A stretch of 64,000 nucleotides of DNA, from the IMG/VR virus record IMGVR_UViG_3300032087_004307, positions 1,738 through 65,737 of that record. One strand, given 5' to 3'. The notes below the pieces were generated by a model that worked only from the letters and a program-made list of their open reading frames with translations, was not told the DNA's origin and did not search any database. Shown here piece by piece: positions 39,091 to 44,622 of this stretch (position 1 is the stretch's first letter; every line of letters begins with the position of its first letter). This DNA comes from a virus (Duplodnaviria; Caudoviricetes). The position numbers and the translations under genes were made by a program.

Positions 39091-40110
39091 ATGAGCCAAC
39101 TGTTTAAGACAGCGGCTTGCTTTACGGATATTCATTACGGATTAAAGCAGAACAGCCGTTTACACATACAAGACTGCCACAGGTACATAGACTGGTTTAT
39201 TGCTGAAGCAAAGGCCAGAAATGCAGAAACCTGTATATTCCTTGGTGATTGGAATCATCACAGAGCAAGTATTAGTGTTGCAACTATGAATGCGTCTATT
39301 CAAGACTTTAAAAAATTAAATGATGCATTTGAAACTGTTTACTTTATAACAGGCAACCATGACTTATACTATAAAGACAAACGTGAACTTAACAGTATAG
39401 AGTATGCCAGAGACATGTCTAACTTTGTAATGGTGGATGAGCATTTTTTACAAGATGATGTAGCAATCATACCTTGGCTTGTAGGTGACGAATATAAACA
39501 AGTTGCAAAAATGCAAGTTAAGTACATGTTTGGGCATTTTGAATTACCATACTTTAAAATGAATGCAATGGTAGAAATGCCAGATCATGGCGGGGGCATA
39601 AACGACAAAATGCTAGGCGGTCCAGAGTATGTGTTTAGTGGTCACTTTCACAAAAGGCAGTTTAAAAATAATATTCATTATATTGGAAATGCTTTCCCAC
39701 ACAATTACGCAGATGTAGACGACAATGAACGTGGTGCTATGTTCCTTACATGGGGAGAAGAGCCGCAATATGTAAACTGGGCAGAGTGTCCAAAATATAA
39801 AAGATTTACATTAAAAGAACTTTTAGACGATCATCAAAATTTATTAGATGAATACACTTATGCCAGAGTATCTCTAGACGTAAGTATTAGTTATGAAGAA
39901 GCAAACTTTGTAAGAGAGAAATTTGCAGAGCAATATGGGGTAAGAGAACTACAACTTATTCCAATAAAAGAAGAAGAAGAATTTGAAGGCGGTGAAATAC
40001 AATTTGAAAGTGTAGATCAAATTGTACTAGCCCAACTAGATACTATAGACAGTAATACAATATCTAAAGAAGTATTAGTTGACATATATAACAGCATAGA
40101 AACCCAATAA
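39091..40110 (+). CDS. gp47: Recombination nuclease (Mre11/SbcD-like)
   Basis: DIH, LGDW, GNHD, GHF, SGHFH metallophosphoesterase motifs. Confidence 0.92.
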   Translation: MSQLFKTAACFTDIHYGLKQNSRLHIQDCHRYIDWFIAEAKARNAETCIFLGDWNHHRASISVATMNASIQDFKKLNDAFETVYFITGNHDLYYKDKRELNSIEYARDMSNFVMVDEHFLQDDVAIIPWLVGDEYKQVAKMQVKYMFGHFELPYFKMNAMVEMPDHGGGINDKMLGGPEYVFSGHFHKRQFKNNIHYIGNAFPHNYADVDDNERGAMFLTWGEEPQYVNWAECPKYKRFTLKELLDDHQNLLDEYTYARVSLDVSISYEEANFVREKFAEQYGVRELQLIPIKEEEEFEGGEIQFESVDQIVLAQLDTIDSNTISKEVLVDIYNSIETQ

Positions 40111-41876
40111 TGTTAAAGATTAAAAACGTATCAGCAAAAAACTTTATGAGTGTTGGCAACAACACACAGGCAGTTAATTTTGATAACTGTCAACTTACAC
40201 TTGTATTAGGACATAACTTAGACATGGGCGGAGACGGTAGCAGAAATGGTACTGGTAAAACTACTATAATAAATGCATTAAGTTATGCTCTTTATGGCGA
40301 TGCCTTAACAAACATTCGTAAAGATAATCTAATAAACAAAACAAACGGTAAAGGTATGATTACCACAGTTGAGTTTGAAATACAAGGCAAACAGTACCGA
40401 ATAGAACGTGGAAGAAGACCTAATATTTTAAAACTTTACATAGACGGAGAAGATGCTGTTGACGGTGAGCAACAGGGCGATAGCAGAGAAACACAGAAAG
40501 AAATAGAAAAAATTATTGGCTTTCCACATAATATGTTTAAGCATTTAATTGCATTAAACACCTATACTGAACCGTTCTTGAGTATGAAGAACAATGATCA
40601 AAAGGATATGATTGAGCAGTTATTGGGTATTACAGAACTGTCACAAAAAGCAGAAATACTTAAAGAGCGACAAAAAGTTACTAGAGATAGTATAAAAGAA
40701 GAAGAAATTACTATCAATGCTATTAATAAAAGCAATGAACGAATAGAAAAAAACATACAGGAAATAGAAAGTCGTAGCAGAGCATGGCAAAGTAATAAAG
40801 ATGTAAAAATTACAGAACTAGGAACACAAATTATTGACATGGAAAAACTTGATATTGATCAAGAATTAAACAATCATAAAACCATAGTTGAAGTAAAAGA
40901 AAAACTAGCAAACAAACAGATATTAGATACTGAATTAAAAAGATTGGAAACTAGTGTAAACAGGAGTTCAGAAAAACTACTACGTCTAGAAAAAGATTTA
41001 GAAAGTGCAAAAGCAGGTGTTTGCCCAGCATGTGAACAACCTACTGCTCATTTAGACACACATGAACAATATACAAAAGAAGTAGAAGAAGATATTGCTA
41101 CTGAGCATTTATACTTTGCAGAATTAGAGGAACGTAATAAAGAAATACAAACAGGCCTAGAGAAGTTTGATGATATACCAGAAATGCCCGTAACATCATA
41201 CAGCACATTAGAACAAGCATTGCAACATAAACACAATTTAGATACTATGCGTTCTCAACTAGAAGAAAAAGTAGACGAGGAAAATCCTTATATAGAACAA
41301 ATAGAAAGTCTTAAAACATCTGGGTTACAGGAAATTAGTTTTGAGGTTATGAACGAGCTGACTCATTTACAAGAACACCAAGACTTTTTATACAAGTTGC
41401 TAACGAGTAAAGATAGTTTTATTCGTAAGAAAATTATAGACCAAAACATTGCATACCTTAATCACAGGCTATCTTACTACTTGGAAAAACTTGGATTACC
41501 ACATGAAGTAAAATTTGCAAGTGACTTAGGTGTAGAAATTACAGAATATGGCAGAGACTTAGACTTTGATAATTTAAGTCGAGGTGAACGTAACAGACTT
41601 ATACTTGGTTTAAGTTGGGCATTCAGAGACATATATGAAAGTTTAAACAGACCTATGAACCTAATGTGTATTGACGAACTTGTTGATAGTGGCATGGACA
41701 GTATGGGTGTAGAGAATGCACTAGCAGTACTGAAAAAAATGCATCGTGAACAAGGCAAAAATATCATGTTAATATCTCACAAAGAAGAACTGATAGGTCG
41801 TGTAAACAATGTATTAACTGTGGTAAAAGAGGGCGGCTTTACAAGTTATAATACCGATACTGAGTATGTTGGTTGA
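40110..41876 (+). CDS. gp46: Recombination ATPase (Rad50/SbcC-like)
   Basis: Walker A NGTGKTT, coiled coil with CPAC zinc hook, LSRGE signature, Walker B CIDE, ISH. Confidence 0.93.
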   Translation: MLKIKNVSAKNFMSVGNNTQAVNFDNCQLTLVLGHNLDMGGDGSRNGTGKTTIINALSYALYGDALTNIRKDNLINKTNGKGMITTVEFEIQGKQYRIERGRRPNILKLYIDGEDAVDGEQQGDSRETQKEIEKIIGFPHNMFKHLIALNTYTEPFLSMKNNDQKDMIEQLLGITELSQKAEILKERQKVTRDSIKEEEITINAINKSNERIEKNIQEIESRSRAWQSNKDVKITELGTQIIDMEKLDIDQELNNHKTIVEVKEKLANKQILDTELKRLETSVNRSSEKLLRLEKDLESAKAGVCPACEQPTAHLDTHEQYTKEVEEDIATEHLYFAELEERNKEIQTGLEKFDDIPEMPVTSYSTLEQALQHKHNLDTMRSQLEEKVDEENPYIEQIESLKTSGLQEISFEVMNELTHLQEHQDFLYKLLTSKDSFIRKKIIDQNIAYLNHRLSYYLEKLGLPHEVKFASDLGVEITEYGRDLDFDNLSRGERNRLILGLSWAFRDIYESLNRPMNLMCIDELVDSGMDSMGVENALAVLKKMHREQGKNIMLISHKEELIGRVNNVLTVVKEGGFTSYNTDTEYVG

Positions 41877-42648
41877 TATCCATTTAGGGTACAACAAAGA
41901 TTATACCCTTACTTACGAACTTTTTGATAATCGTGTTGCTAAACGTATATGGGAACGTTTCCAGGAAACTGAATTTGACTATGTAAGCAGAACACAGTTT
42001 TATAACTTTGGTGAAACTGAAGAAGATGTAAAAGCTCGTTTAGATGAATCCATACAAAAAATTAAAGAACTAGACCCAAACATGCCTTTAGATTGGTTAA
42101 ACGATCTAAATAAACTTCATACTGCCTTCCCTGACAATGTAAAGCAGAGTACTGGTGAACTAAATCACTGGTGGAGTATGTTCAATTATCATTTACACCA
42201 TTTAGAGGATATCACAAGATACCAAAACAAACGATTTTTATTTTGCTCACAAGATCAAGGAGAGCCTTTGCAGGAAGAAGACTATGATCTTTTTTCTCCC
42301 ACAAGGCTTACAAATCATCTGTATATGAATTACCCACATGTGGGTAAACACATTATGGAGTTAGCAATAGATAATGATGTGGATATACCTGCACATCATA
42401 TTGTGCCTACATCAATACTAAAAAATGATTGTGTTGCCTGGTTTGGTAGAAGTGTGTTTGCGGATAATCCAGATAAAGTTGTAAAACAGATCAGAAGATG
42501 GTGTGTCAAAGTTAATAACAAACTGCCTTACCCAATAGACGACAAAAGACTTGCTATAGGACATATTCCATTAGGCAAATTAACACACGAACCAGATTTA
42601 GACATTATAGCAAACAACCAATATTTTCATAGTGTAACATGTTATTAA
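41866..42648 (+). CDS. Hypothetical protein (260 aa)
   Basis: Overlaps the gp46 stop; His-containing motifs LNKLH, NYHLHHLE; no family recognised. Confidence 0.6.
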   Translation: MLVDIHLGYNKDYTLTYELFDNRVAKRIWERFQETEFDYVSRTQFYNFGETEEDVKARLDESIQKIKELDPNMPLDWLNDLNKLHTAFPDNVKQSTGELNHWWSMFNYHLHHLEDITRYQNKRFLFCSQDQGEPLQEEDYDLFSPTRLTNHLYMNYPHVGKHIMELAIDNDVDIPAHHIVPTSILKNDCVAWFGRSVFADNPDKVVKQIRRWCVKVNNKLPYPIDDKRLAIGHIPLGKLTHEPDLDIIANNQYFHSVTCY

Positions 42649-42664
42649 GTCCTTCGGACTTTTT
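42648..42664 (+). terminator. Putative intrinsic terminator
   Basis: AGTCC-TTC-GGACT followed by a T run directly after the stop codon. Confidence 0.5.
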
Positions 42665-43112
42665 AAGTCTTCGTTAATTCGTTTCGTTTCACTCAACTCA
42701 TTTACTCGACTTAAATTCTCTTCGTTATCACGAAGGTAGGAGTCATAATTCTCCTATACAGGAGAATATGTCATCACGATGGGTCATCGTCATCGTAAAC
42801 TCGGGTGCTATTAGGAACCGGTGAGCCTTCTGTCCCCATACACTACCGTCTCATCTCACGGAAACACTATAACCTAGTTACGTTTAGTTATACTGCTTGT
42901 AGGTTGCTTATTCTCATTCCTACTTCCTTTTAATACTGATTGTCGTGTGTTTGTATCTTGTCCGCTATACATCTCTAAATCCCGCACCAGGATTACTGGA
43001 TTGTCGAAGAGCCCGAATTATAGCCTCGGTTGGGGCCGGTGTATAGTCCTATGTGTGCCTGTGTTGTGCCTTGATGTGAATTGTGTTCTAACTTGCGTTT
43101 TAACACTCCTAC
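42648..43112 (-). ncRNA. Candidate large structured non-coding RNA (unassigned family) downstream of the GIY-YIG gene
   Basis: Longest intergenic region; ~44% GC by hand count over 42721-43080; long-range GUAGGAGU/ACUCCUAC helix and at least 8 internal hairpins. Confidence 0.6.
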
Positions 43113-43535
43113 TTATAAGGTCTTTAAGGCCTCTTTGAGGATTTTCGAACCACCTACTCTGACGTTGATGATTCCGTTATAATAGTCGTCAGTTTCAAGT
43201 ACTCGCCTCTCGAATTGCTCTCGGGCTTCTATGTAACTTGCTACTCCTCGGCTAGGGCAATAGTACAATATTTCTCTACGAAATTTGTCTTCTCCTAGTT
43301 CTAATACATCTGCATTAAGATGATCACTACTACCCCAATAAGTACGCCAGTCACTTTCTTTAGTGCCACGTCTTTTATTCTTCTTGCCTTTTAGTGGGGG
43401 TTTTGTGGTCTTAAATTTTGCTAACTTTTTACCAACATATTTTTTGTTGTTAGTTAGGTTTGTAATTAAGTAAACAAATGCTTCGCAGTCATCTGGCAGT
43501 TCTGTGACTTCTTTGTTATTATAGTGCCAGCTCAT
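43113..43535 (-). CDS. Stand-alone GIY-YIG-family endonuclease (140 aa)
   Basis: AFVYLITNLTNNKKYVGKK, YWGSS, conserved Glu (YIEAREQ) and YYN. Confidence 0.85.
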   Translation of the reverse strand: MSWHYNNKEVTELPDDCEAFVYLITNLTNNKKYVGKKLAKFKTTKPPLKGKKNKRRGTKESDWRTYWGSSDHLNADVLELGEDKFRREILYYCPSRGVASYIEAREQFERRVLETDDYYNGIINVRVGGSKILKEALKTL

Positions 43536-43768
43536 TATAAGTCTTCAGTACCTTGCTGACCATTTTTCTTTTGAACATAATTATTTAAAACTTTGATAAA
43601 TTTATTTCTTTCCATAGGACTCATTGCCCAAACTTCATTGTATGATATTTTACCTTCAGAATAGATTACCATTTCCATTACGTTAGTAATAAGTGCCTCT
43701 GACTCTTTTTTGAGCTTCTCTAGATACCCGAGAATTTCTTCGGGTTCGGCTCTTCCTAGGAAGCCGTG
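43535..43768 (-). CDS. gp51-like extension of the gp26-like gene, reached by a probable -1 frameshift (or a 47-aa ORF from ATG 43678)
   Basis: 78 codons including the stop in the -1 frame from slippery T TTT TTC; GKISYNEVWAMSPMER resembles gp51/GT chaperone tails; stop overlaps next ATG (TAATG). Confidence 0.7.
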   Translation of the reverse strand, partial: HGFLGRAEPEEILGYLEKLKKESEALITNVMEMVIYSEGKISYNEVWAMSPMERNKFIKVLNNYVQKKNGQQGTEDL

Positions 43769-44622
43769 AAAAAATTTACAGGGTCAAAATTAATACCTGC
43801 TTCAAACTCTTTAGGTCCCTTTTCAACCTCACATTCTTCACAAGTAAACATCATAGTTTTTTGTATACCAATTTTATTGACTTCTGTTACTGCTGTTTCT
43901 ACTGCTTTACCAATACTGGCTTCAGTATTATCTAAAAATTCTTTAATATGATCTCTATCTGTAATAGTTTGTTCATCTTTCCCCTTACCAATAGTAACAC
44001 TATGCACAGCATCAACAATTAATTGATAGTTCATATCTGCCATTTTCATGAAACTTTCATTAAAAACTTTCAGTTTGTCCATATCGTCTGGTAGTTCACC
44101 TAAAACTTGTAAACTTCTAGAACTCTGGAAACTGGTGATTCCGGCTTCTATAGTGTTTTTGTATTTAAACGGCTTAATAGAAATTTTTAAATTTTCTGCG
44201 GCGTCTACCTGATAAATTTCTTCTAACTCAACCATACTTTCTATAGCACCTTCAACACTTGCTATGCCTGTGATTGAGTTTTCACAAGAAGGGCAAGGTG
44301 CTGTGACTTCAATATCGTCACCATGTGTTGCTCCTTGTACAGCAATTAGTAAAACATCTACGTCATTGGAAATCATCTCTCTGACATTTTTTACATTTGG
44401 CACACAACTCTTTATAAGTTGGCTAACGGCTTCACCATTGAGTAAAGCATCTGGATTCTTCATTATGAGCTCGTCTTTAGCAGTCATGGGAAAGACTGGC
44501 AGTTCACCACTTTCAGGATATTCCACAATATCTTTTGTGTAAAATTTACCTCCTGAAGGTAACCTCACATATAGTTTGGGCGATCTAAAATATTCGCTTA
44601 ACGGATTTGGTGTATTTGACAT
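43756..44622 (-). CDS. gp26: Baseplate hub assembly/tail chaperone, gp26-like
   Basis: LPSGG, PMTAKDEL, DVDVLLIAV, CPSC and CEEC zinc motifs, NFF terminus. Confidence 0.82.
   Translation of the reverse strand: MSNTPNPLSEYFRSPKLYVRLPSGGKFYTKDIVEYPESGELPVFPMTAKDELIMKNPDALLNGEAVSQLIKSCVPNVKNVREMISNDVDVLLIAVQGATHGDDIEVTAPCPSCENSITGIASVEGAIESMVELEEIYQVDAAENLKISIKPFKYKNTIEAGITSFQSSRSLQVLGELPDDMDKLKVFNESFMKMADMNYQLIVDAVHSVTIGKGKDEQTITDRDHIKEFLDNTEASIGKAVETAVTEVNKIGIQKTMMFTCEECEVEKGPKEFEAGINFDPVNFFTAS

What the first reader, a model, noticed from the sequence alone, without database searches (positions are those of the whole stretch)
42648..43535. Small GIY-YIG nuclease followed directly by a ~465-nt closed, highly structured non-coding element: candidate nuclease-RNA system
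Seen: most genes here abut, yet 465 nt with no credible ORF and ~44% GC follow the GIY-YIG gene. On the minus strand the first 8 nt after the stop codon (GUAGGAGU, 43112-43105) are complementary to ACUCCUAC at 42743-42736, closing a ~375-nt domain. Inside are GUGUU-AA-AAC-GCAA-GUU-AG-AACAC (GNRA loop), a CUAUACA/UGUAUAG multibranch domain (CCGAG/UUCGG, CUCU/AGAG, CCAG/CUGG), GUAGG/CCUAC, UAUAAC/GUUAUA, CCGU/ACGG, GGCUC/GAGUU, ACGAUG/CAUCGU and UUCUCCU/AGGAGAA, plus two unpaired A/C-rich linkers. Known: compact nucleases with an adjacent co-transcribed RNA are the layout of IscB/TnpB (OMEGA) systems, but those use HNH/RuvC; homing GIY-YIG enzymes such as I-TevI normally carry a separate DNA-binding domain, which this 140-aa protein appears to lack. 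Inference: the RNA could supply scaffold or specificity (an undescribed GIY-YIG ribonucleoprotein), or be an independent large phage ncRNA. I cannot assign it to any RNA family from memory.
Basis: partly seen in the sequence, partly recalled or inferred. Interest (0 to 1): 0.88.

Follow-up and report, generated by a model that had tools for sequence, protein, structure and literature searches.

The report
Nuclease gene with large structured RNA
A small GIY-YIG nuclease gene of an abundant group of marine T4-like phages is always followed by a large, intricately folded RNA of no known family, and the two travel together as one 0.9-kb unit, which makes this a new nuclease-linked RNA whose job is still open.

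Summary
Window 42647-43112 (minus strand) has no credible ORF and encodes a real structured RNA. On 60 non-redundant relatives, 83 proposed pairs in 13 helices, two of them pseudoknots, are 96.5% paired. 59 of 83 pairs show double compensatory changes, and 0 of 500 shuffles reach this. Invariant G-U pairs put the RNA on the nuclease strand. Rfam, ARAGORN and a phage blastn search find nothing known.

The RNA follows a 140-aa SegE-type GIY-YIG gene on the same strand in 109 of 118 motif-selected loci. Seven misses are cut loci and two are not the element. The pair is a discrete unit of about 0.9 kb at the convergent gp46 / gp26-hub junction. It occurs in both orientations, with at least 5 flips on the RNA tree.

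Homologues 77-81% identical lack the RNA, including in the complete Melnitz genome. The A/C-rich loop is conserved rather than hypervariable, and the "closing" helix is lineage-specific.

My best reading is a new stable RNA class inherited with a Seg-type nuclease, like SegB and tRNA genes. The RNA's function is unknown.

The parts
43113..43535 (-). Stand-alone GIY-YIG nuclease gene (140 aa, catalytic domain only). Its start ATG overlaps the stop of the upstream 47-aa ORF.
   Evidence: ORF. Pfam PF19835 E 5.1e-34. AF2 model with mean pLDDT 97.1. The best Foldseek match is the I-TevI catalytic domain 1mk0 (prob 0.96, TM to target 0.67, E 0.15), and no match reaches E<=0.001. Invariant residues in 49 diverse relatives are F20, Y22, Y33, G35, K37, W63, Y66, S69, Y101, E103 and N120.
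43051..43112 (-). Variable 5' leader of the RNA. It is A/C-rich and carries 1-4 copies of (A/C)AAGGCACA and/or GAC-N5-GUC mini-hairpins. A GATAACTA-like motif lies at or over the nuclease stop codon.
   Evidence: Alignments A1 and A2. The leader and the GATAACTA motif are kept in the 14 listed loci where other genes separate the RNA from the nuclease. The leader is poorly conserved in sequence register.
42966..43046 (-). Domain 1: a three-way junction closed by CUAUACA/UGUAUAG, with hairpins CCGA/UCGG and CCAG/CUGG.
   Evidence: helices 1-3. 10 of 15 pairs have changes on both sides, and 90.5-99.6% of cells are paired.
42899..42957 (-). Hairpins GAUAC/GUAUU (with the conserved A/C-rich loop AAACACACGACAAUCA) and GUAGG/CCUAC (with the conserved loop ..UGAGAAUAAGCAA).
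   Evidence: helices 4 and 5. Loop conservation is seen in A2.
42794..42898 (-). Pseudoknotted core. It holds the long hairpin AAGCA-GUAUAACU/GGUUAUAG-UGUUU, whose loop CGUA (42879-42882) pairs with UACG (42794-42797). GUGAG (42855-42859) pairs with CUCAC (42821-42825) in the loop of hairpin UGGGGAC/GUUCCUA. The nearly invariant stretch GACGGUAGUGUAUGGGGA also lies here.
   Evidence: helices 6-10. Pseudoknot helix 7 has 4 of 4 pairs with double changes. Helix 8 has 4 of 5. Invariant G-U pairs are 271:300, 274:297 and 268:309. The covariance model R1 was built on this part.
42723..42793 (-). GAUG..CAUC hairpin followed by the conserved UGAUGAC; then hairpin UUCUCCUG/UAGGAGAA; then conserved UUAUGACU and UGAUAAC(G).
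   Evidence: helix 11 (4 of 8 pairs with double changes). Conservation lines of A2. The fold of the GAUG region is not resolved.
42661..42715 (-). 3' 'ladder' hairpin. The outer stem is UUUAAGUC/GACUUAAA. Inside, Watson-Crick pairs alternate with conserved G-A/A-G steps.
   Evidence: helix 12 (7 of 8 pairs with double changes). Inner pairs covary. The module is shared by RNA types A and C, with a related one in type B. It is unique in the window.
42647..42660 (-). Terminal hairpin AAGUCC-GAA-GGACUU. It marks the 3' edge of the cassette. The U-run lies on the opposite (+) strand and an A-run precedes the hairpin on the RNA strand.
   Evidence: helix 13 (5 of 6 pairs with double changes). Similarity between the inverted cassettes of L126 and L147 ends at the base of this hairpin. 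Sequence.
41866..42648 (+). Convergent 260-aa gene of unknown family (context, not part of the unit).
   Evidence: No Pfam or PHROG hit. It flanks the cassette in either orientation in relatives.
43535..44622 (-). gp26-like baseplate hub gene (43756-44622) and a 47-aa ORF (43535-43678). These form the upstream context on the cassette's strand.
   Evidence: Pfam PF12322 E 2.8e-13 and phrog_150. The order hub, then small ORF, then cassette is seen in 18 of 24 hub-selected loci.

Best explanation
The stretch encodes a new family of large (about 400-480 nt), multi-domain, doubly pseudoknotted RNA, made from the same strand as the nuclease gene.

Nuclease gene and RNA gene form one discrete two-gene unit of about 0.9 kb. 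The unit sits at the convergent junction between the gp46 recombination-nuclease operon and the gp26 baseplate-hub operon of a clade of marine T4-like myophages. It has been turned or re-inserted there several times.

Most likely mechanism (inferred, not shown): the RNA is a stable, independently folding, trans-acting RNA. It is not a guide for the nuclease. The Seg-type GIY-YIG nuclease secures or spreads the inheritance of the linked RNA gene. T4-type SegB does this for neighbouring tRNA genes, which there serve as anti-defence cargo.

Shown: the RNA structure, its strand, the linkage, the unit's edges, the two orientations, and purifying selection on the nuclease.
Inferred: transcription as a discrete stable RNA, action in trans, nuclease-driven inheritance, and any benefit to the phage.

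The stated confidence is for this mechanism. I hold at about 0.9 that a real, new structured RNA is coupled to the nuclease gene.
For: Structure:
- On 60 sequences, 96.5% of 4877 cells are paired, against 84.0% in shuffles and 34-43% when partners are slid.
- 59 of 83 pairs have changes on both sides, and 0 of 500 shuffles reach any measure.
- An independent RNAalifold run on 19 sequences gave 42 of 81 pairs with compensatory changes.
- Invariant G-U pairs fix the strand.

No known family.

Linkage:
- 109 of 118 loci found by an RNA motif alone carry the nuclease gene upstream on the same strand. Seven misses are cut and two are not the element.
- Of 24 loci found by the hub protein alone, 23 show the nuclease and 23 show the RNA. 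The misses are loci that end there.

Unit and mobility:
- Between L126 and L147 a ~900-bp segment is inverted relative to the flanks. It runs from about codon 3 of the nuclease to the base of the terminal hairpin.
- On the RNA tree the orientation label needs 6 changes, at least 5 of them forced by well-supported branches.
- The nuclease is 78% identical in phage Melnitz, whose gp46 is only 26% identical.

RNA as its own gene:
- In 13 of the 109 loci, 0.5-1.5 kb of other genes separate nuclease and RNA. Some of these genes lie on the opposite strand.
- The RNA and its leader stay intact in these loci.

The nuclease does not need the RNA.

Contigs of four RNA libraries from three studies lie on the element. 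Two of them bridge the nuclease stop codon. These are contigs, so they give no strand or ends, and DNA carry-over is possible.

Precedent: SegB lies among tRNA genes and drives their preferred inheritance (PMC2330249, search listing only). It amplifies tRNA and other anti-defence genes, and segB is enriched near tRNAs (PMC13096335, abstract and section 10 read).
Against: - No function of the RNA is shown, and no transcript ends or strand come from reads.
- The nuclease is not sporadic in this clade. It is present in every evaluable hub-selected locus.
- In loci whose hub protein is at most 57% identical, the nuclease is still 77-87% identical in protein. Its four-fold sites are 0.27-0.56 identical, no more alike than those of the flanks at 0.21-0.58. 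That looks like a domesticated, functionally constrained gene rather than a selfish homing gene.
- Homing copies a unit in one orientation. The repeated flips need another process.
- The strict order nuclease then RNA is kept through flips and insertions. At least four RNA types (A-D) persist at the same place. Both facts would also fit a functional partnership.
- No locus was found with the RNA but without the nuclease. For mere cargo one might expect some.
Confidence: 0.4

Rival explanations
1. Ribonucleoprotein: the RNA is a scaffold, specificity module or regulator (activator or inhibitor) of the domain-only GIY-YIG nuclease. In one variant, transcripts read through the terminal hairpin, which has no U-run on the RNA strand. 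They would then carry flank-derived sequence that directs the nuclease, as in TnpB/IscB elements.
For: - The nuclease has no separate DNA-binding domain. It carries a conserved Lys/Arg-rich beta-hairpin insert, KFKTTKPPLKGKKNKRRG.
- The RNA was never found without the nuclease upstream on the same strand.
- Order and orientation are kept through at least 5 flips.
- Several RNA types occupy the same position.
- The hairpin's U-run is on the other strand.
- RNA-library contigs run on past the hairpin (records 1, 10, 19), but they give no strand.
Against: - Proteins 77-81% identical exist without the RNA downstream, in about 20 of 76 evaluable loci.
- They show no distinguishing residues.
- The complete Melnitz genome has no match to the core model. 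Other RNA types were searched only in the 7.4-kb locus.
- Distant homologues are followed directly by genes.
- The RNA can sit 0.8-1.8 kb away, behind opposite-strand genes.
- No hypervariable guide-like segment was seen, and matches to the window are near chance: 4 13-mers against 1.35 in shuffles, none meaningful.
Confidence: 0.25
2. Cis-acting transcript element: a long structured 3' untranslated region. It would stabilise, terminate, insulate or process the nuclease mRNA at a convergent junction, for example by blocking exonucleases or antisense read-through.
For: - The RNA lies directly after the stop codon in 96 of 109 loci.
- It ends in a hairpin that is terminator-like for the opposing operon.
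- RNA-library contigs bridge the stop codon (records 2 and 13).
Against: - About 400 nt with 13 covarying helices, two pseudoknots and long invariant loops is far more than known stabilisers need.
- The RNA is kept intact when separated from the nuclease gene by opposite-strand or other genes.
- Homologous nuclease genes elsewhere do without it.
Confidence: 0.15
3. Ribozyme or intron relic: a self-cleaving or self-processing RNA, or a derivative of a group I-type mobile intron that lost its exon context. Its link to a homing-type nuclease would be historical.
For: - GIY-YIG nucleases are classic partners of phage group I introns (PMC3984707, search listing only).
- The size and the pseudoknotted, multi-domain architecture with invariant junction nucleotides are ribozyme-like.
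Against: - No group I, group II or small-ribozyme model reaches even E 10 on the 801-nt region.
- The element interrupts no gene. Its flanks are a stop codon and the end of a convergent gene.
- The order of helices does not follow the P3-P7 pseudoknot plan. That comparison is mine and rests on recall.
Confidence: 0.1

Closest known systems
T4-type SegB (free-standing GIY-YIG homing endonuclease) with its neighbouring tRNA genes
   Same: A Seg-type GIY-YIG nuclease of a T4-like phage sits next to stable-RNA genes. The nuclease promotes inheritance or amplification of the linked RNA genes, and it is transferred horizontally yet often domesticated (PMC2330249 listing; PMC13096335 abstract and section 10).
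   Different: Here the RNA is a ~430-nt pseudoknotted RNA of no known family, not a tRNA. The nuclease is the catalytic domain alone. I recall that SegB is longer and has a DNA-binding part; I did not check this. Order and strand are fixed, and no cleavage or inheritance test exists for this unit.
HEARO / IscB omega-RNA (OMEGA systems)
   Same: A compact nuclease gene is paired with an adjacent large structured RNA inside a mobile unit. HEARO was first noticed purely as an 'endonuclease-associated RNA' (PMC9755519 and PMC13565253, listings only; the history is recalled).
   Different: IscB uses RuvC and HNH domains. Only a GIY-YIG domain is found here. By recall, the omega-RNA lies upstream, carries a guide and is obligatory. 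Here the RNA lies downstream, no guide was found, and close homologues lack it.
Phage group I introns carrying GIY-YIG genes (I-TevI type)
   Same: A GIY-YIG nuclease gene is joined to a large structured RNA in T4-like phages. The best fold match of the protein is the I-TevI catalytic domain.
   Different: There is no host gene, no exons and no match to Rfam intron models. The ORF precedes the RNA instead of sitting in one of its loops.
Large phage-associated RNAs of unknown function (GOLLD, ROOL)
   Same: Large, intricately folded, phage-borne RNAs known only from comparative analysis. This comparison is recalled; no paper was read.
   Different: No similarity to their Rfam models. This RNA is smaller and is bound to one specific neighbouring gene.

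Membership tests
GIY-YIG nuclease superfamily, SegE-type domain (Pfam PF19835) | Profile match above the curated cut-off | tested here: met
   117.6 bits against a cut-off of 25, E 5.1e-34, covering profile positions 1-123 of 123.
GIY-YIG nuclease superfamily, SegE-type domain (Pfam PF19835) | GIY-YIG fold with conserved Tyr (GIY), Tyr-x-Gly (YIG), catalytic Glu and Asn | tested here: met
   Y22, Y33, G35, E103 and N120 are invariant in 49 relatives. Assigning them to the catalytic roles rests on recall of I-TevI. The AF2 model has pLDDT 97.1. Its top fold match is the I-TevI catalytic domain with prob 0.96 but E 0.15. No conserved Arg was identified, and K37 is invariant.
Free-standing homing endonuclease (Seg type) | Separate DNA-binding domain after the catalytic domain | tested here: not met
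   The protein has 140 aa, all within the catalytic-domain profile plus one C-terminal helix. Most of the 150 listed relatives have 130-170 aa.
Free-standing homing endonuclease (Seg type) | Sporadic presence among related genomes, with empty sites | tested here: not met
   No empty junction was found. 23 of 24 hub-selected loci carry the nuclease and the 24th is cut.
Free-standing homing endonuclease (Seg type) | Horizontal mobility and several genomic contexts | tested here: met
   The gene occurs after the hub gene, after gp46 or the 260-aa gene, and after nrdB. It occurs in both orientations, with at least 5 changes. It is 78% identical in a phage whose gp46 is 26% identical.
Free-standing homing endonuclease (Seg type) | Site-specific cleavage of the allele that lacks the gene | not testable with these tools
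   Needs enzyme assays or mixed infections.
OMEGA (IscB/TnpB) RNA-guided nucleases | RuvC-type (with or without HNH) nuclease | tested here: not met
   Only GIY-YIG families match.
OMEGA (IscB/TnpB) RNA-guided nucleases | Guide segment at an end of the RNA that matches target DNA | tested here: inconclusive
   No match above chance within the 64-kb window. The host genome, the rest of the phage genome and the RNA ends are unknown.
Group I intron | Match to the intron model; interruption of a gene with exons on both sides | tested here: not met
   No Rfam hit at E<=10. The flanks are a stop codon and a convergent gene end.
tmRNA / tRNA | tRNA-like domain and tag frame | tested here: not met
   ARAGORN finds none in the window. 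No Rfam tmRNA hit.
Any Rfam 15 family | Score at or above the gathering threshold | tested here: not met
   0 matches in the window and 0 in 8 related loci. At E<=10 there are only three chance-level hits, all with E of 3.1 or more.

The most novel reading that the evidence does not exclude
The RNA is a functional partner of the nuclease. The domain-only GIY-YIG enzyme would bind this ~430-nt pseudoknotted RNA, which would supply target choice, scaffolding or on/off control. This would be the first RNA-dependent GIY-YIG nuclease, a third nuclease chemistry joining RuvC and HNH in RNA-linked mobile elements. The strict order nuclease then RNA, its survival through repeated flips, and the succession of RNA types at the same place would then reflect co-evolution of a two-part machine.
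Probability: 0.2. Interest if true: 0.95.

Novelty: new variant of a known kind. Interest (0 to 1): 0.74.

Why it matters
Large RNAs with this much covarying structure are rare, and they have repeatedly turned out to be ribozymes or cores of ribonucleoprotein machines. The nuclease family is very abundant in marine sequence data: 7997 of 8000 scored candidates pass E 0.001, and there are 2094 clusters at 50% identity.

The element gives a defined, short (0.9 kb), testable pair. If the RNA is cargo, it extends the SegB-tRNA principle, in which a nuclease promotes the inheritance of useful RNA genes, to a new RNA class in ocean phages. If it is a partner, it would be a new kind of RNA-dependent nuclease.

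Either way, the RNA family deserves a curated model and a structure determination.

Tried and rejected
tmRNA idea. I recalled that phage Melnitz carries a two-piece tmRNA, and a short frame in the GAUAC hairpin looked tag-like. ARAGORN and Rfam find no tmRNA, and indels in relatives do not keep the frame. Dropped.

T4 endonuclease II (DenA) idea for the nuclease. It was prompted by the nrdB neighbourhood in Melnitz and rests on recall. PDB sequence searches with the protein and with a 49-sequence profile found no nuclease at all. Foldseek ranks I-TevI first, and no EndoII entry appears in the rows shown. Not supported.

Decayed C-terminal domain or pseudogene. The downstream regions of 78 relatives show no consistent frame, and the covariation is RNA-like. 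Dropped.

Target-site duplication. The window has a 12-nt direct repeat at 42661-42672 and 43535-43546 (D3). Across 52 non-redundant loci, the longest shared word between the nuclease start region and the RNA 3' region averages 6.3 nt, against 6.0 in shuffles. I read the window's repeat as chance.

Guide search. 13-mers of the element elsewhere in the window number 4, against 1.35 in shuffles, and none is meaningful. This is a weak test, because only 64 kb was searched and no host genome is available.

K-turn reading of the GAUG...UGAUGAC region. I worked this by eye and found no consistent register. I make no claim.

Covariance model R1 of the core. It finds only the B2 subtype (L070, L034, L027, L030) plus two marginal hits among 69 sources. 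Types B1, C and D therefore cannot be shown to be homologous in the core. Type B1 shows helices with modest covariation on 18 sequences.

Motif scan of 185,579 prokaryote genomes. It gave 35 stretches, which my own arithmetic puts at or below the chance expectation. None of the 35 holds the RNA (nhmmer) or the nuclease (tblastn).

Hub protein search in the Melnitz record and two other records. Nothing was found. The tool itself says an empty answer there shows nothing.

RNA libraries. In the four runs laid, no contig lay on most of the convergent 260-aa gene (41821-42462) or on much of the hub gene. The contigs give no strand, no ends and no proof of transcription.

Rows dropped:
- L092 and L131 were left out of the tree and of my own helix search, because their rows do not align. 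They are still inside the counts.
- One search leaves 8 rows without an orientation label uncounted.
- One search uses only the protein-selected loci (L001-L088 and the window) with at least 500 nt downstream.
- A2 holds 60 of 126 extracted elements, after removing copies at least 96% alike.
- A4 holds 36 of the 58.

Papers. I saw search listings and abstract starts only. The exception is PMC13096335, where I read the abstract and section 10. No supplements were opened, and the SegB neighbourhood tables there may bear on the precedent. I found nothing in print on a GIY-YIG-linked RNA in the searches, which cover only the held library.
Full report
**What is at the coordinates.** The minus strand carries a 140-aa ORF at 43113-43535. 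Its start overlaps the stop of a 47-aa ORF that follows a gp26-like baseplate hub gene. After it come 464 nt up to the stop of a convergent 260-aa gene. No ORF longer than 63 aa overlaps this stretch. Its GC content is 42.7%, against 35.0% for the window. The protein matches Pfam SegE_GIY-YIG over the whole profile, E 5.1e-34. The window is part of a 65.7-kb viral record judged 18% complete, with one copy of the gene.

**Is the RNA structure real?**
- The single sequence folds only modestly better than shuffles: z -2.43, with 2 of 100 shuffles as good.
- Relatives settle the matter. A search with the nuclease protein found at least 595 relatives in IMG/VR. Of 78 downstream regions of 300 nt or more, 25 hold the full element directly after the stop codon.
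- A scan with a 17-nt RNA motif gave 119 further stretches.
- RNAalifold on 19 sequences predicted 81 pairs, 42 of them with compensatory changes.
- On a non-redundant set of 60 sequences I proposed 83 pairs in 13 helices, including two pseudoknots. The pseudoknots are loop CGUA with UACG, and GUGAG with CUCAC.
- 96.5% of cells are paired, against 84.0% in column shuffles and 34-43% when partners are slid. 59 of 83 pairs change on both sides, and none of 500 shuffles reaches any measure.
- The structure was derived from these same sequences, which inflates the paired percentage. The double-change counts and the slid controls are far apart regardless.
- Nearly invariant G-U pairs (57-59 of 60) would be A-C on the other strand. 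The RNA is therefore read from the nuclease strand.

**Anatomy.** From 5' to 3':
- A variable A/C-rich leader carries repeated AAGGCACA and GAC-N5-GUC motifs.
- A three-way junction follows.
- Two hairpins with strongly conserved loops come next.
- A pseudoknotted core contains the almost invariant GACGGUAGUGUAUGGGGA.
- A GAUG hairpin is followed by UGAUGAC.
- A covarying hairpin is followed by UUAUGACU and UGAUAAC.
- A 'ladder' hairpin alternates Watson-Crick and G-A steps.
- A terminal hairpin has its U-run on the opposite strand.

The 'closing' 8-bp helix and the leader GNRA hairpin are confined to the window's own lineage.

**Known families.**
- Rfam gives no match at gathering thresholds in the window or in 8 related loci. 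At E<=10 it gives only chance-level hits.
- There is no tRNA or tmRNA.
- Blastn finds no match among 50,697 phage records.
- A motif scan of prokaryote genomes gave 35 stretches, none of which is the element.

**Linkage to the nuclease.**
- Of 118 loci found by the RNA motif alone, 109 carry the nuclease gene upstream on the same strand. The motif lies 258-303 nt after the protein match in 96 loci, 829-856 nt in 10, 1411 nt in 1 and 1768 nt in 2.
- Seven of the nine others are cut less than 330 nt before the motif. Two (L092, L131) share only the motif.
- Of 24 loci found by the hub protein alone (48-78% identical), 23 show the nuclease and 23 show the RNA. The misses are at locus ends.
- I found no empty junction.
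- In the 13 loci with larger spacing, other genes lie between nuclease and RNA. Among them is a 165-aa gene on the opposite strand. The RNA and its leader, including a GATAACTA-like motif, stay intact. The RNA therefore does not have to be the 3' end of the nuclease message.

**A discrete, movable unit.**
- All RNA-bearing copies lie in the convergent junction between gp46 (with or without the 260-aa gene) and the hub operon. They follow either operon. Among the hub-selected loci, 18 are hub-side and 6 are gp46-side.
- Between the sister RNAs of L126 and L147, about 900 bp is inverted relative to the flanks. Similarity starts at about codon 3 of the nuclease and ends at the base of the terminal hairpin.
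- The RNA tree needs 6 changes of orientation, at least 5 of them forced by well-supported branches. Shuffled labels give a mean of 14.4 changes, and 0 of 500 shuffles are as low. Recombination between RNAs could add apparent changes.
- No flanking repeats were found in general.

**The nuclease family.**
- It is very large.
- The AF2 model is confident, with pLDDT 97.1. It resembles the I-TevI catalytic domain most, though weakly by E-value.
- Nothing suggests a separate DNA-binding domain.
- The protein is under strong purifying selection. In loci whose hub protein is at most 57% identical, the nuclease remains 77-87% identical. Its four-fold sites are 0.27-0.56 identical, no more alike than those of the flanks at 0.21-0.58.
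- In phage Melnitz the protein is 78% identical while gp46 is 26% identical and the context differs. This points to horizontal transfer.

**Does the nuclease need the RNA?**
- Apparently not. About 20 of 76 evaluable loci have a protein 77-81% identical followed by protein genes or other sequence. These lie after nrdB, or after the hub gene.
- No residues distinguish the groups.
- The core model R1 finds nothing in the complete Melnitz genome.
- S-SRM01, P-HM1 and phiM12 homologues are followed directly by genes.
- Conversely, other RNA types (B, C, D) occupy the same place in other loci and share modules with type A.

**Expression.** Contigs from four RNA libraries of three studies lie on the element at 90% identity or more. 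Two of them bridge the nuclease stop codon. They give no strand and no ends, and DNA may be present in such libraries.

**Reading.**
- The dependence is asymmetric. The RNA is never seen without the nuclease, but the nuclease is often seen without the RNA. Together with the RNA's autonomy from the nuclease message, this fits a stable RNA gene carried and kept by a Seg-type nuclease.
- The precedent is SegB and tRNA genes (PMC2330249, listing only; PMC13096335, abstract and section 10).
- Against a purely selfish element stand its universality in the clade, the strong constraint on the protein, and the flips.
- A functional partnership is not excluded. It remains the most exciting possibility, at about 0.2-0.25.
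- A cis-acting role and a ribozyme are less likely.

Noticed in passing
window 43535-43790 and loci L213-L236: The small ORF after the gp26-like hub gene (47 aa in the window, in another frame) is found after the hub gene in all 24 hub-selected loci, at 37-79% identity and about 80 nt after the hub match.
   Followed up: partly
L083, L001, L218, L219, L236 (relatives of window 41866-42648): Some relatives carry two tandem, diverged copies (about 45% and 88% identical) of the 260-aa gene of unknown family next to gp46. The gene has no Pfam or PHROG match.
   Followed up: no
L036, L119, L155, L159, L164 and others: A 165-aa gene on the opposite strand (one or two copies), or two same-strand genes (L097, L172), are inserted exactly between the nuclease stop and the RNA leader. 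That joint therefore seems to be an insertion hot spot.
   Followed up: partly
L092 and L131: The 17-nt core motif, and about 20 nt around it, occurs in two viral contigs that otherwise do not align with the element and have no nuclease gene nearby. This may be chance, or a shared module in an unrelated context.
   Followed up: no
L014, L040, L041 (nuclease loci without the RNA): These share a short conserved stretch, GAGAGAGGTTTAGAGGAGACA, beside a strong hairpin downstream of the nuclease gene. It may be a different small RNA or a terminator region.
   Followed up: no
window 42768-42793 and alignment A2: Conserved UGAUGAC and GAUG motifs flank a small hairpin and resemble box C-like or tandem G-A elements. 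No consistent kink-turn register could be drawn by eye.
   Followed up: partly
window 40110-41876: The gp46-like protein is closest (51% identity) to those of jumbo Pseudomonas phages of the PA5oct type, not to cyanophage-like marine myophages. The record is judged 18% complete at 65.7 kb. The phage may therefore be large.
   Followed up: no
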